A stretch of DNA of 64,000 nt, taken from Octopus vulgaris. Its lineage: Eukaryota. The DNA lies in the NCBI GenBank assembly GCA_951406725.2, contig OX597820.1, positions 110,918,001 through 110,982,000 on the forward strand, written 5' to 3'. Position 1 is the first letter of the stretch, and every line of letters begins with the position of its first letter. The translations under genes and the position numbers were made by a program. Positions 18,596 through 50,818 of this stretch are shown piece after piece. The notes beneath the pieces were generated by a model that saw only the letters and a list, made by a program, of their open reading frames with translations, had not been told where the DNA came from and made no database searches.

Positions 18596-18731
18596 ATATG
18601 TGTGTGTGTGTATATGTGCGTGTATGTGTAGGTATATGCATGTGTGTATGTGCATATATGTGTATGTGTGTATATATATGTATATATATATACGAAAGAA
18701 GGTTTGAAAATGCAATTTAAAAGATGTTTAT

Positions 18732-18776
18732 TTATTTTACCGGTTTCACTCTTTGGAAAAAGATTATCAAAAGTAA
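18732..18776 (-). ncRNA. Hammerhead-like motif with U3-A8 core (sense pLTR copy)
   Basis: ttactt-TTGATAA-tcttt-ttcc-aaaga-gt-GAAAC-CG-GTA-aaataa. Confidence 0.55.
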
Positions 18777-20360
18777 CATGTGGAAGTTTGGTTGCGTTAA
18801 TTATTGGTTGTTGCAAATTGCTACATTACATATATATATACAGTCTTTGGAAACAGGGACATGTTAAGGACATAAAAAAGTACAACAGTATGTTGGGAAT
18901 ATAAAGAGGTTTAACAAGCTCATTGAAAAATGGGCAGAAAAGATTAAAACAAATATATTATACATCTCAGGGTAATTTCCAGGACGAATTATTAAAAAAA
19001 TTCAGTACAGAATATTATGAATTCAAAAAGATTTACATTAATGTAGTGGCGAGGTTGTTACTGACCTGTCCGTTTTAGCATAAATGTGGAATTGAAAAGG
19101 ATGTATCCTTTTTTTCTTTTTTTGGCTTTCCTTCAAGCATCAATGATTTTGGGGTTAGGATGAGGTGAATATGTGTGTCTCTGCGTGTATGTGTGTGTGC
19201 ATACATATACATGTGGTGTGAATAGATGTGTCTGTGTGTCTGTAGTATTTGGTCAGGTGGTGTCTGTTTGTCAAACGTGTGTGTGGTTGTCATGGTGTTG
19301 TGTGTGTGTGTGTGTTTGTGTGCGTGTGTACGCATGTATGTGTGTGGATGGCATTTGACATGGTGCTGCGTGTGTATACATGTGTGCCTGCATGGAGGTG
19401 AGATTGGTGTGAGTGTGTGTATCCCTGTGTGCGTGCACATACACGTATACAAGTGTCTGTGTGTGTGTGGGGGGCTGTTTTTGATTGGTTCCAGGGTGGT
19501 GTAAATAGATGTGTGTTGTTTAAAGAATTTTTTGGGGTAGGATGGTGTGCGCATATGCGTGCCCGCCCGCGCGCGCGCGTCTACGCGTGTGTGCGGGTCA
19601 TACACACACACTGCATACACACATACACACACACACACATCATACACATACAGACCAAACACACACACATCTCACCCCCCCACACCCCCACACACACACA
19701 CACACACACACACAACACACACACACACACACACACATACATACAGAATACACACACACACAACGCACATACATATAATACACACACACAACACACAAAT
19801 ATAACATATATTTATATATAATATACACACATATAACACACACACACAACACACACACACATAACATACACACACACAACACACGCACACATACATACAT
19901 AATATAAATACAACACATATACACCTAACACATATATACATACAATACACATACACAGCATATATATAATACACATACACAATATATACATATAACATAC
20001 ATACACAATACATACATACAATATATATATATAGACAATGCATATACATATATACATATATATATATATATGATGTTTACATACACATACATAAATATAC
20101 CACATATACACACAATATACATACAATGTATACATATACATATACACATACATATAACATATATATACACAACATACACATACACAATGCATACACATAT
20201 ATACATATAATGTATATACATGTATCCATGCATATACAACACATATACAATATACATACATGCAATGCATATATACACATACATATACACATAATGTACA
20301 CATACATATACAACACACATACCTATAATATACATATACACAATGCACATACATATAATG

Positions 20361-20398
<38 letters not shown>

Positions 20399-20825
20399 CA
20401 TATATACACACACATATATATACAATGCACACACACACACACAAAATACATACATATAACGTACACACAGATATATATATATACATACCACACACACAAA
20501 CAATGTATTCACATATACACACACACAATGCATACACACACAAACACAACACACACATATATACATATATATAACACATATACACACATAAATACATACA
20601 CACACAATGCACACACACACACATGCACACACACACACAACGCACACACACACACAACCCACACAACACACACACACATACATAACATACATATATATAA
20701 TGCATGCGCGTGTGTGGTCAATACCCGCTAGTGCGCCCTATGTGTGCATGTGTCCGCCTGCATGATACGCTGCGAGTGTGCGCGTGTCTTTGTGTGCTTG
20801 TTCTGGATGTGTGCCTAGGGGTATG

Positions 20826-23010
20826 TTAGAGTATGTTTAGTTGTAGTCTGTATTTTTGAATAAGATTACTTTCCCTATTTATTCGTGTTTGGTCTGTGGT
20901 GTCATCCGAGCATTGGTATAGTGGGAAGACTAAGAATTTGGGGTACTTATTGTGTGCACAAAGGTCTAAGTGTCCACTTAGTGGTATCTGTCTTGTGGTG
21001 GGGTCCCTCAGTTGTTGTCGGTGAACTGTCATTCTTTCTCTGAGGGTAAGGCTCGTTTGCCCTATGTAGTCTTCGTGGCACCCTTCACACCTTATGACGT
21101 AGAGTAAATTTTTTGATGCGCACGTGAAATTATTTTTTATGATGAATGTGTGTCCCGACCGGAACTTGTACGTCGATCCCTCAATGAGGTGGATGCAAGT
21201 CCTGCAGTTGGGGCGACCACATTTTTTGATGGTGGGCGGTGGGTTTGTGTTGTGTAATTTTGCGTTGGTGAGGAGGTTTTTTATGGATTTAGGTTGTCTC
21301 TTACTTTTTATTATTTTATGAGCTGCCAGTAATTTTTTCAGGCGTGGGTCTTGATTTATTTGTGGAATGTTGTTGTATATAATAGTGTAAGCTTCTGCAT
21401 TCCTTGGTTTGTGTGTTGAGAGATAGGGGCGGCTATTTACTGTACTGTGGATGTGTTTAGGTTTTCGTAGGTCTTGAGTGTTGATTGATTTGGCCCGTTC
21501 TATTCCGTTGTCTACTAGTGATGCCGGGTAATGTCTTTCGAGAAGAATTGCCCTTAGTTCCCGGAGTCTTCTATTTCGTGTTGTGTCATTTGAGACAATT
21601 GTGCAGATTCTTCTCGCTAGGTTGAAGGGGATATTTGTCTTTGTGTGTTTTGGGTGATTAGAGGTGAATAGAAGGTATTGTTTAGAGTCAGTGGGTTTGT
21701 AATGGATGTCAGTTTCAATGTTGACGCCTTTTTTAATGATTAGAATGTCAAGAAAAGGGAGTTGGTCCTGACTATATTCCATTGTGAATTGAATGTTGTT
21801 ATTTACACTGTTGATAAGGTTTTTGAAGTCAGTAAGTTGGTCGAGTGTGTGGGACCATAGGATAAGGCAATCATCTAAGTAGCGTTTCCAGTTCTCCAAC
21901 AGGTATTTGTGGAAAGACTGGCCGTACTTATATTTGGATTTTTCATAGATATGTGATTCCAGGTAGGCCATCACCAGGTTTGCATAGATAGGTGCAACTT
22001 TCGTACCCATTGCAGTTCCTGAAACCTGTCTGTAAGTGTTGTTATTGAAATTCATGAAGTTGTTTTGCAGAATAAATTTGAGGCCCTCAATGATGAATTC
22101 TTTTTTTATTCTTTCCGGGATCTCATTGGGATATTTATCCAGCCAGAATTTAATGGCTTCCAGTCCATATTCATGTGGGATTGTGGTGTAAAGATTAATT
22201 ACATCAAAGGAAACGATTAAAGTGTCTTTATCGGTATGTTTGGGGAGATGATTTAATAGGTCCAGGTCATCTCTTACAATACTTGGAATGTGTTTCAGTA
22301 TTGGTTTTAGGATGATATCTATAAAGTTGCTAAGTCTGTGTGTTTCACAACTTGGGCCTGCCACTATTGGTCTCAGTTTGAAATCAGTGGGATGTGGTAT
22401 AGTGATGCAGGTTGAAGTGGACTTTTTGCAAGCTTCTGTGATAATTTGACTCTTGTGTATTTTTGGAAGCCCATAGAGTGTGCTGGTTTTGCAATTAAAG
22501 TTTGTAATGTAGTCGCATTCCTTTGCTGTTAAGTCATTCCGGTGTTGGTAAATGAGTGCCTTCAGTTTGGTCATTGTTTTGGATTGCTGGTAGTCGACTA
22601 CTCTTTCATAGTATGTGGTATCCTCTAAAAGGAGAGATACAGAGTTTTTATACTGCTCAGTATTCATAACAACGACCGTACTACCCTTATCAGCTTCCTT
22701 TATTGTGACGTCATGATTGTCTCGTAGCGTATGGATGATTTTCCATTCACTTTTACTGGTGTTGGGTTTGGGTTTAGGTTGTGGGAGTTCACCATAAGGA
22801 AAGTTTGAGATGTAATCGCAAAATTTGTCTAAGGTTTTGTTTTTGCCTTTTATGGGATTATAGCTGCTTTTGTTACGGACCATTGATTCGTCGTTATTAT
22901 TAGTTTCCTTGTCAAAACATTCCTCTGTGAGGCGTAATTTTCTGCAAAAGTGTGAGATGTCATCCTGTATTTCCCTCAGGTTAGGGTATTGCGGAGTTAG
23001 GGTGAGTTGG
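20826..23010 (-). CDS. PLE reverse transcriptase - GIY-YIG endonuclease polyprotein (5'-truncated, no internal stops)
   Basis: LRPIVAG, SFDVINLYT, GTAMGT, WKRYLDD, LPFLDI, CGRPNCRTC linker, LLYVIRC..C..DYIGQT, RERMTVH, RESNLIQ. The first ~25 aa of the ORF-track call come from the inverted arm. Confidence 0.92.
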
Positions 23011-23855
23011 GGTGTATGTAGTGTGTGTGTATGGCCCGCACACACGCGTAGACGCGCGCGCGCGCGGACGGGCACGCATATGCGCACACCATCCTACCCC
23101 AAAAAATTCTTTAAACAACACACATCTATTTACACCACCCTGGAACCAATCAAAAACAGCCCCCCCACACACACACAGACACTTGTATACGTGTATGTGC
23201 ACGCACACAGGGATACACACACTCACACCAATCTCACCTCCATGCAGGCACACATGTATACACACGCAGCACCATGTCAAATGCCATCCACACACATACA
23301 TGCGTACACACGCACACACACACACACACAACACCATGACAACCACACACACGTTTGACAAACAGACACCATATAACCAAATACTACAGACACACAGACA
23401 CATCTATTCACACCACATGTATATGTATGCACACACACATACACGCAGAGACACACATATTCACCTCATCCTAACCCCAAAATCATTGATGCTTGAAGGA
23501 AAGCCAAAAAAAGAAAAAAAACGGGTACATCCTTTTCAATTCCACATTTATGCTAAAACGGACAGGTTAGTAACAACCTCGCCACTACATTAATGTAAAT
23601 CTTTTTGAATTCATAATATTCTGTACTGAATTTTTTTAATAATTCTTCCTGGAAATTACCCTGAGATGTATAATATATTTGTTTTAATCTTTTCTGCCCA
23701 TTTTTTCAATGAGCTTGTTAAACCTCTTTATATTCCCAACATACTGTTGTACTTTTTTATGTCCTTAACATGTCCCTGTTTCCAAAGACTGTATATATAT
23801 ATGTAATGTAGCAATTTGCAACAACCAATAATTAACGCAACCAAACTTCCACATG

Positions 23856-23900
23856 TTACTTTTGATAATCTTTTTTCAAAGAGTGAAACCGGTAAAGTAA
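23856..23900 (+). ncRNA. Hammerhead-like motif with U3-A8 core (inverted pLTR copy)
   Basis: ttactt-TTGATAA-tcttt-tttc-aaaga-gt-GAAAC-CG-GTA-aagtaa. Perfect 6-bp stem I. Confidence 0.6.
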
Positions 23901-23979
23901 ATGAACATCTTTTAAATTGCATTTTCAAACCTTCTTTCGTATATAATTCCACTCGTGCGATGCCCACAACTCAACTTTG

Positions 23980-24080
<101 letters not shown>

Positions 24081-48385: not shown

Positions 48386-50818
48386 GGTGTTAAACGCAGG
48401 TGTTATTCAATTTCTTTTACTTCCAACACATGTTTCGAAGTCAACATTGGTAAATCAAACTCATCAATAATACATTTTAAAAGAATGTGATGGATGTGTA
48501 TAATGATGAAGGGAATGCTATTAAGTTGTTTTTTTTAAAAACGTTAGAAGATATAACGTCAAAGGTAGCCTATAGAAAGAGAAAGGATAAAGGAAAGAAA
48601 TAAGCAGAAAACTAATAATGGGGAAATATAGAGCGATATGTAAATTAAAATAAAGGCTTGGAAATAGATACATCTAGTGGAAGTGAAATGTAAGAAGAAA
48701 ATCAATGTTCAAATTATATAAAATGGTAGATATCACTTATATGGACTAAAGGTATGTTTCTGCCAATGTTTACATCGATAAGCAAGCTCTATAAACGTGT
48801 TTACAAGGAGATTATTAGAAAATAGAATATACAATAGTTCACTATTGCATTTATTACTATCCCTAAATGTAGAATAATTAGAAATTCTTTAATAGCTGAA
48901 TTGGTCGGTACGTATATACTTTATGAAATGGCTGACCAGTTCCCAAGCATCAATGGAGGTCTCTATCGTGATGATTGCCTACTCCACCTTCAAAATGTTT
49001 CTAACTAAAAAGTACAAAAAGTTAAGAATAGTTTAATTAAGTTTTTCCATGGAATGGGCTCAGGTATCGTTTTTGATGATGATGTAACGAAAGCCAACTT
49101 TTTAGATATTACACTTAACTTACACAATAATTCGTACTTCCCATACAACAAACCATCAACCAATCTTATGTATATTAGAGCCAATTCAGTAATTATTCTA
49201 GGGCAATCACTAAGAATTTAGTTTTAAATATTTCATTAAGATTGTCTAAGTTATCTGCTAATGTTGACATTTTCAACACGGCTGAATTTTATAACTCTGC
49301 CTTACTTAAAGCAGGTTATACAGAGAAAGTTACCTACATTAATTCCATTCAATCTCATTCTACTTTTACTAATGGAGACATGAAATCTAGTTGTAACGAC
49401 GTGAACGTTTTTAATTTTAATTTAGACTCCAACATCAAACAGAGTAATGTTTTTTTTGAAGCGTAAGTAAGATAACCGTTATTTAAGAACCTCTTTTTCA
49501 TTCTAAAGGTAAATCAATGTCTTTTAAAGATAGTTACACTAAAAATAAGGCAACTACTAGCAAAATTATTTGGTTGGTTATTCCTTATGGGTGGCAAATT
49601 AAATCTAATCTTCCTTTCCAGTTTCGTGAACCTGTTATTAAGAATTTCCCAAAGAATTCTAGGTATTACTCGATTATCAACTCGCACACGGTTAGGATTA
49701 GCTTTTCTAACACAAAAAATCTATCACAAATTATCTCTTCACATAATATTAGTCTGTTAAATAAGAATCCAATTACTGAAAATAATAACATTAATTTAGC
49801 TAATACTAGCCATCCTCCTAGAAATATTAACAATGTTATTGTCTCTGAAGTCAATTCCAACGGAATTAAGCTTATGTGTAATAATTCTAAGACTGAAACC
49901 TCTATATACCAGTATAAAATTACTTCCGGTACCGATGTCATTTTCTATATAGGTAGTTCTTCTCAGTTATCTAAAAGAATTTCTAATAATTTACATTTAG
50001 GGATAGTAATAAACGCAACATTACAGGGCCTAGTAAATTAATTTGATATCTGAAAGTTCATAATATGCAATATAATTTAGATAGGTTGATTCTCTCCATT
50101 TCATTCCCATACGATAAAGGCAAAGAATTCTGCCAACTCCGTAATTGTATATTCTATTTTCTAATAATCTCTTTGTAAACACGTTTATAGAGCTTGCTTA
50201 TCGATGTAAACATTGGCAGAAACATACCTTTAGTCCATATAAGTGATATCTACCATTTTATATAATTTGAACATTGATTTTCTTCTTATATTTCACTTCC
50301 ACTAGATGTATCTATTTCCAAGCCTTTATTTTAATTTACATATCCCTCTATATTTCTCCTTTATTAAATTTCTGCTTATTTCTTTCCTTTACCCCTTCTC
50401 TTTCTATAGGCTACCTTTGACGTTATATCTTCTAAGGTTTTTTTTAAAAAAAAACTTAATAGCATTCCCTTCATCATTATACATATCCATCGCATTCTGT
50501 TAAAATGTCTTATTGATGAGTTTGATTTCTTTCTTTCCCTGATGAGAAGATTACATTGTTTTAAACCATTTTATTCCTTTTGGAATAATACCAATGTTGT
50601 CTTCGAAACATATGTCAGAAGTAAAAGAATTTGAATAACACCTATGTTTAGCTCCATTTATTTATTTATATATATTATACAAAATATTCCGCATCAACCC
50701 GGAGTTTCTACCTTTACAAACAGGGTGTTACGTCATTATATGTGGGATTTTTGGCTGCTCTGGTAACTGTTTATTTATTTTTTCCGTGTTAATTGTAACC
50801 AAGGGAAAATACACACAT

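What the first reader, a model, noticed from the sequence alone, without database searches (positions are those of the whole stretch)
23856..23900. Neptune pLTR hammerhead with compensatory U3-A8 core and a 2-nt insertion
Seen in both arms (also 18732-18776): a 6-bp stem I flanks UUGAUAA instead of CUGAUGA, then a 5-bp stem II, an extra GU, and GAAAC-CG-GUA. Established: C3 and G8 form a tertiary Watson-Crick pair in the active fold, so C3U plus G8A is the compensatory double change. Inference: a non-canonical but selected ribozyme on a young element, which standard CUGANGA searches would miss.
Basis: partly seen in the sequence, partly recalled or inferred. Interest (0 to 1): 0.75.

Follow-up and report, generated by a model that had tools for sequence, protein, structure and literature searches.

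The report
Known-type hammerhead in Penelope retroelement
The flagged 45 bases are one of thousands of genomic copies of a hammerhead-ribozyme motif in the end repeat of a Penelope-like jumping gene; its unusual U-A core pair is already in print, the supposed two-base insertion is better read as a U·U mismatch that is also in print, and the motif likely cuts only weakly as a dimer, which has not been tested.

Summary
The motif is at both places (23856-23900 +, 18732-18776 -). It is a type I hammerhead in the pLTR of a 5'-truncated, Neptune-like Penelope element that carries an inverted 5' arm. U3-A8 is no property of this young copy: with this stem III the genome holds 8,935 U3-A8 matches (control 62), in families whose proteins are only about 40-65% identical. 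Stem I covaries; N7 and H17 vary as hammerhead rules allow. U3-A8 is published for Penelope-element hammerheads (PMC4209133) and other natural ones (PMC3088659). The '2-nt GU insertion' is not supported. Sister families fix the register as U10.1·U11.1 followed by C-G (4 compensated pairs against 0), and that U·U is also published (PMC3088659). The arms lie on opposite strands, so one transcript cannot supply a dimer and would fold back; the sense arm has a private stem I mismatch. Copies do not end (50 of 50) or, as a rule, begin (1 of 30) at the cut site. Cleavage is untested. The scan noted U3-A8 Penelope hammerheads before in other genomes. Ordinary; low interest.

The parts
23856..23900 (+). 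Type I hammerhead motif in the inverted 5' arm (antisense to the ORF, pointing away from it); predicted cut between 23894 and 23895
23856..23861 (+). Stem I, 5' strand; pairs with 23895-23900
   Evidence: 6 of 6 pairs show two-sided change in 12 representatives
23862..23868 (+). Core U3 U4 G5 A6 N7 A8 A9 (U3 = 23862, A8 = 23867; N7 = 23866 is U here, C or A in relatives)
23869..23884 (+).
23885..23894 (+). G12 A13 A14, palindromic stem III ACCGGU (2 bp with a 2-nt loop as monomer, 6-bp duplex in a dimer), H17 = A at 23894 (U or C in sister subfamilies)
18732..18776 (-). Sense-strand hammerhead motif in the 3' pLTR; private C·A mismatch in stem I; predicted cut between 18738 and 18737
18687..19620 (-). 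Sense arm (3' UTR / pLTR), ending about 50 nt past the predicted cut site at a (TA)n run
23015..23981 (+). Inverted copy of the 3' arm (97.4% identical over 940 nt) joined to the truncated 5' end of the ORF
23946..23981 (+). About 36-nt 'tail' present at only this end of the insertion, followed by (TA)n
   Evidence: the one-ended 30-40 bp tail is described in PMC8557442 Fig. 2 legend
20826..23008 (-). Penelope-like ORF, 5'-truncated (likeness to fuller copies starts at 23008, at the GxKF motif region; about 1.4 kb of 5' ORF missing), open to the stop: RT (Pfam RVT_1), CX4CxxC linker, C-terminal GIY-YIG endonuclease with CCHH
19621..20825 (-). Microsatellite-rich part of the 3' UTR, shared with other copies

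Best explanation
This is a type I hammerhead motif carried in the pseudo-LTR of a high-copy, Neptune-like Penelope retroelement, with an inherited U3-A8 core pair and a U10.1·U11.1 mismatch under a C-G pair at the base of stem II; in source elements it likely cuts slowly as a dimer, and in this truncated copy it is probably inert. Shown: the motif, its place 118 nt upstream of the ORF's ATG in tandem copies, its covariation across families, and that genomic copies run through the cut site. Inferred: two motifs pair through the palindrome ACCGGU to make a 6-bp stem III (direct-repeat copies such as L141 have two same-strand motifs); U3-A8 replaces the C3-G8 tertiary pair; cutting after N-U-H would trim read-through pLTR-ORF-pLTR RNA, probably with protein help, while mostly uncut RNA is what gets reverse-transcribed. 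In this copy the two motifs are on opposite strands inside a 940-nt inverted repeat, so a read-through RNA would fold back over them.
For: Pattern counts with stem III ACCGGU and H17: U3-A8 8,935 (control 62), C3-A8 282 (42), U3-G8 181 (24). 27 of the first 100 C3-A8 rows are a chance match antisense to a LINE-type ORF. C3-G8, searched with A17 only: 24 (9) against 5,798 (27) for U3-A8. Own family: 100 of the first 100 listed keep U3 and A8. In 12 hand-picked representatives the 15 invariant columns are core and stem III positions; stem I has 6 of 6 pairs with two-sided change; stem II has 4 of 5 in the U·U register and 0 of 5 in the insertion register. H17 is A, U or C and never G in 50 of 50 rows (3 of these loci were picked with A17 fixed, and the variation amounts to three subfamily states). 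The motif-bearing families lie beside related PLE ORFs. Literature: U3-A8 in Schistosoma Cercyon PLE hammerheads and weak dimer cleavage of minimal PLE hammerheads (PMC4209133); natural U3-A8 and U10.1-U11.1, the U-U being the best tolerated mismatch (PMC3088659); a PLE hammerhead is protein-assisted and uncut RNA is the main insertion substrate (PMC11167929).
Against: No cleavage data. The hammerhead fold is not the predicted minimum-energy fold of the monomer (z 0.68 and 0.35), and even in the predicted dimer only the palindrome duplex forms while stem I's 5' strand mispairs with stem II's 3' strand. Three weakening features are stacked (U3-A8, U·U, an A/U-rich stem II with hairpin energy about -0.2 kcal/mol). 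Genomic ends show no cut-site footprint. The representatives in the covariation test were picked by patterns that fixed the core words, and the pattern fixed the U·U and C-G letters, so invariance of those columns is partly built in; related sequences can beat the shuffle control without structure. Neptune membership rests on motifs compared by eye, not on a tree with named references.
Confidence: 0.8

Rival explanations
1. One reading: a 5-bp stem II (UCUUU/AAAGA) with a true 2-nt GU insertion before G12.
For: All five pairs are Watson-Crick in this subfamily group; the isolated hairpin is a little more stable (-1.1 vs -0.2 kcal/mol) and the whole motif about equal (-1.1 vs -1.3). It may exist as a slipped alternative fold.
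Against: It breaks in the sister subfamily of about 580 matches (C opposite A) and wholly in families B, D, E; 0 of 5 pairs show two-sided change and 57.9% of cells pair, against 4 of 5 and 73.7% for the U·U register.
Confidence: 0.07
2. The fold is conserved but no longer cuts; it serves as a structured RNA element (protein binding or positioning of reverse-transcription starts about 45-50 and 85 nt downstream) in the element's life cycle.
For: Copies run through the cut site in 50 of 50 rows and 37 of 37 sister-family rows; only 1 of 30 ORF-start copies begins within about 8 nt of it; hammerhead mutants did not impair insertion in vitro for an anole PLE (PMC11167929).
Against: Catalytic-core letters (G5, A6, A9, G12-A14, U16.1) and the not-G rule at 17 persist across families 40-65% identical in protein, which is what selection on catalysis predicts; uncut ends are also seen for the anole PLE, whose ribozyme does cut.
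Confidence: 0.2
3. A decayed hammerhead carried along without selection; U3 and A8 are just C-to-T and G-to-A drift in an A/T-rich element.
For: Both changes are common transitions; the element is very A/T-rich; within-family identity reflects recent copying, not selection.
Against: Stems I and II have been rewritten with compensated pairs among families while the core stayed fixed; single-change cores are rare (282 and 181 matches against 8,935) and among the first 100 listed of each are mostly scattered mutants of U3-A8 families or chance matches.
Confidence: 0.05

Closest known systems
U3-A8 minimal hammerheads of Schistosoma mansoni Cercyon Penelope-like elements (Cervera and De la Pena 2014, PMC4209133; read parts 1-2 of 4 of the text and parts 1-2 of 3 of the supplement PDF)
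   Same: Type I, in the pLTR of a PLE, U3-A8 core, thousand-copy families, dimer-dependent stem III; two such sequences (UUGAUAA.., UUGAAAA..) are in their Fig. S3.
   Different: Here stem III keeps a 2-bp stem with a palindromic loop (ACCGGU), and stem II starts U·U then C-G rather than one unpaired base plus G10.1-C11.1; the host element is Neptune-like.
PLE hammerheads with a small palindromic helix III (Drosophila, rotifer, shrimp, mosquito; same paper)
   Same: Short palindromic helix III, pLTR location, expected dimer cleavage.
   Different: Those listed have C3-G8.
Natural core variants U3-A8 and U10.1-U11.1 (Perreault et al. 2011, PMC3088659; read section 8 and passages)
   Same: Both deviations seen here are reported as natural variants; U-U is called the best tolerated mismatch at that place.
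   Different: In the section read they are listed as separate variations, not as a combination kept across several retroelement families; their supplementary Fig. S6 was not seen.
Neptune clade of EN+ Penelope-like elements (Craig et al. 2021, PMC8557442; read passages and supplement part 54 of 59)
   Same: RT followed by C-terminal GIY-YIG, CX2-5CxxC linker, CCHH, long spacing between them, (TA)n targets, inverted 5' arm, one-ended tail.
   Different: No phylogeny against named Neptune references could be run; the paper notes Neptune itself is paraphyletic in its tree.
PAc hammerhead of the green anole Poseidon element (Frangieh et al. 2024, PMC11167929; read part 1 of 4 and passages)
   Same: pLTR hammerhead near the ORF start; two 3' ends downstream that make the tail; no genomic ends at the cut site.
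   Different: C3-G8 core; Poseidon clade; the ORF starts inside stem II, here 118 nt after the cut site.

Membership tests
Type I hammerhead ribozyme | Core N3 U4 G5 A6 N7 N8 A9 / G12 A13 A14 / A15.1-U16.1 H17 with a Watson-Crick 3-8 pair | tested here: met
   U3-A8; core invariant in 12 representatives; H17 never G in 50 rows
Type I hammerhead ribozyme | Stem I closing the ends, with covariation | tested here: met
   6 of 6 pairs with two-sided change; the sense arm of this copy has one mismatch
Type I hammerhead ribozyme | Paired 10.1-11.1 (usually G-C) at the base of stem II | tested here: not met
   U·U in this and three other families, G-C or A-U in family B; a published natural exception (PMC3088659)
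Type I hammerhead ribozyme | Match to an Rfam hammerhead model | tested here: not met
   none among 77 matches at E<=10
Type I hammerhead ribozyme | Self-cleavage after H17 | not testable with these tools
   no assay; contigs cannot show RNA ends
PLE pLTR hammerhead | Located in the pLTR of an RT + GIY-YIG element, sense to the ORF in the 3' repeat | tested here: met
PLE pLTR hammerhead | Short palindromic stem III able to pair between two copies | tested here: met
   ACCGGU; the 6-bp intermolecular duplex appears in the cofold prediction
Neptune clade | C-terminal GIY-YIG with CCHH plus upstream CX2-5CxxC linker (excludes Penelope/Poseidon, Hydra, Naiad) | tested here: met
   ORF translation read against the definitions in PMC8557442
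Neptune clade | Long linker between CxxC and the first C of CCHH (reduced in Nematis) | tested here: met
   24 residues here; about 24-25 in the two Neptune rows and under 10 in the three Nematis rows of Fig. S2 (compared by eye)
Neptune clade | RT phylogeny with named Neptune references | not testable with these tools
   no named reference proteins were available to the tree tools; the tree holds only this genome's families

The most novel reading that the evidence does not exclude
A lineage of Neptune-like elements has kept, over about 50% protein divergence, a deliberately slowed hammerhead (U3-A8 plus U10.1·U11.1 over C-G) so that the RNA stays uncut until it has been reverse-transcribed; the G-C, A-U and U·U versions of the 10.1-11.1 pair in sister families of one genome form a natural series for testing how ribozyme speed relates to retrotransposition.
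Probability: 0.15. Interest if true: 0.5.

Novelty: new member of a known kind. Interest (0 to 1): 0.2.

Why it matters
Modest. It confirms that descriptor searches for CUGANGA and a paired 10.1-11.1 undercount Penelope-element hammerheads (about 8,900 U3-A8 matches with this one stem III in a genome with about 48,300 raw C3-G8 pattern matches, control about 4,900). The set of sister families with G-C, A-U and U·U at the base of stem II is a ready natural panel for cleavage kinetics. The copy itself is a truncated insertion with no sign of a special role.

Tried and rejected
Rfam scan: no hammerhead match, only microsatellite-driven miRNA noise. MFE folding of the monomer gives no support. Idea that ribozyme cutting sets the ends of insertions: rejected for 3' ends (50 of 50 and 37 of 37 rows continue past the site) and unsupported for 5' ends (30 of 41 ORF-start matches examined: 23 keep the whole motif and upstream pLTR; 7 are truncated at about -39, -35, -29, +6, +24, +61, +68). 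A seeming clonal C3-A8 family (27 of 100 rows) is a chance match antisense to a LINE-type RT ORF. Expression: no RNA holder listed on record; this says nothing for or against expression; only contigs were available, so RNA ends could not be seen, and the replication on further runs could not be obtained. Tree of the endonuclease ends: U·U families A, C, D group together (99/97) and E is separate; without a root the direction of change at 10.1-11.1 cannot be told. Lunse et al. (RNA Biol 14:1499, dimer-cleaving PLE hammerheads) and Przybilski and Hammann 2007 (3-8 pair exchanges) are not held; I saw only their citations, and the first may already describe the U3-A8 plus U·U combination. Paper searches: hammerhead+Penelope-like+C3U gave 0; C3U/G8A/compensatory 0; U3-A8 with Penelope-like gave one paper holding the term; U10.1/U11.1 gave one; octopus+hammerhead ribozyme+Penelope gave one.

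Full report
Observation. The 45 nt at 23856-23900 (+) read stem I UUACUU, core UUGAUAA, a 16-nt stem II region, GAAACCGGUA and AAGUAA. The same motif is at 18732-18776 on the - strand with two differences: a loop letter, and a C·A mismatch in stem I found in 1 of 36 copies. Rfam does not detect it and the hammerhead is not the predicted lowest-energy fold, so the case rests on comparison.

The element. [quoted passage not shown] Against fuller genomic copies the likeness starts at 23008, so about 1.4 kb of the 5' ORF is missing. Beyond the break lies an inverted copy of the 3' arm (97.4% over 940 nt) with a roughly 36-nt tail at that end only; both ends abut (TA)n. This is the arrangement described for Penelope-like elements (PMC8557442, passages). 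The linker motif, its long spacing to CCHH and the RT motifs resemble the Neptune rows rather than the Nematis rows of that paper's supplementary alignments (by eye); no tree with named references was possible. In a direct-repeat copy (L141) the predicted cut site lies 118 nt upstream of the ORF's ATG. The genome is 2.8 Gb in 227 contigs; that it is a cephalopod is my guess, not a tool result.

Is U3-A8 special to this copy? No. The family pattern has 1,529 matches (control 0), and 100 of the first 100 listed keep U3 and A8, while N7 is C in 95 and U in 5. With stem III ACCGGU and H17, U3-A8 has 8,935 matches (control 62), C3-A8 282 (42) and U3-G8 181 (24); C3-G8 was counted only with A17 and gave 24 (9) against 5,798 (27). 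The single-change rows are mostly scattered mutants of U3-A8 families; 27 of the first 100 C3-A8 rows are a chance match antisense to a LINE-type ORF and 11 belong to a different repeat, tandem at 360 bp in one locus. U3-A8 motifs sit beside related PLE ORFs 41-65% identical to the window's. The genome also has many canonical hammerhead-like matches (48,324, control 4,902, loose pattern), so U3-A8 marks one lineage, not all.

The 'insertion'. Two registers fit this subfamily with near-equal energy. Relatives decide. A further set (270 matches, mostly one family) has U·U, C-G, then A-U, G-C, U-A; the pattern fixed the first two positions but not the pairing of the inner ones. Family B has G-C or A-U at 10.1-11.1 and no spare bases. 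On 12 hand-picked representatives the U·U register gives 4 of 5 pairs with two-sided change and 73.7% paired cells, the insertion register 0 of 5 and 57.9%; stem I gives 6 of 6. So the GU is G11.2 and U11.1, and the real oddity is a U10.1·U11.1 mismatch (U at 10.1 in 98 of 100 and 94 of 100 listed copies). H17 is A, U or C, never G, in 50 of 50 rows.

Mechanism. Inferred: the palindrome lets two motifs form a 6-bp stem III (seen in the cofold prediction, although stems I and II misfold there), and cutting would occur after 23894 or 18738. PLE hammerheads of this build cut weakly and as dimers (PMC4209133; review PMC6765202, passages); in one PLE the ribozyme needed the element's protein and uncut RNA was the main insertion substrate (PMC11167929). 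The genomic ends agree with uncut templates: all 50 and all 37 rows run past the site to ends about 45-50 and 85 nt downstream in the own group, and only 1 of 30 ORF-start copies begins near it. In this copy the two motifs face opposite ways, so one RNA carries one ribozyme and one antisense copy, which would pair (245 nt of the arms give -391 kcal/mol). With a truncated ORF and a damaged sense motif, this copy is probably inert.

What is known. Cervera and De la Pena reported U3-A8 in Cercyon PLE hammerheads of Schistosoma with about 1,300 hits and show such sequences in Fig. S3. Perreault et al. reported natural U3-A8 and U10.1-U11.1 and cite earlier work that both support cleavage. I did not find the combination described for a retroelement lineage in the searches, but the most relevant paper (Lunse et al.) is not held. 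Earlier notes of this scan describe U3-A8 PLE hammerheads in other genomes; they are unchecked AI notes and did not change my reading.

Verdict. A real, conserved, probably weakly active hammerhead of a known kind; the core variant is published, the insertion is a misread register, and the copy is ordinary. Interest 0.2.

Noticed in passing
window 23815-23874, runs X1 and X10: Contigs of two runs guessed to be RNA show clustered T>C and A>G differences (17 of 28 listed places each, e.g. 23860-63, 23871-74, 23830-35) against 5 of 15 and 6 of 16 in X17 and X19 (one sample). This would fit A-to-I editing of fold-back RNA from inverted pLTR arms; weak, since RNA status is a guess, depths are low and no matched DNA was laid.
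   Followed up: partly
G000:C4:80857199, 80857559, 80857919 (L192): 360-bp tandem repeat with a hammerhead-like motif carrying an unpaired C3·A8 core and a G/C stem II; 11 of the first 100 C3-A8 rows are of this sequence type, and U3-A8 relatives with the same stem appear.
   Followed up: partly
G000:C1:2210408, 2604342 and others: A canonical C3-G8 family also appears to start stem II with U·U, and others with a 1x1 A·A, so an unpaired 10.1-11.1 position recurs among this genome's hammerhead-like repeats; several copies lie back to back within 10-60 bp.
   Followed up: no
L141:912 onward (G000:C27): Fuller copies have a long N-terminal ORF extension (about 460 codons, helical then Gln/Asn/Pro-rich) ahead of the GxKF motif; the L141 copy is broken by a stop and a frame change.
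   Followed up: no
L160 (G000:C1:77936470): One ORF-start copy has a 2-nt deletion in the 3' strand of stem II; a single decayed copy.
   Followed up: no
window 48526-48835 and 50144-50453: Another inverted repeat (310 nt, 95%); my type I hammerhead regex found nothing convincing there.
   Followed up: no
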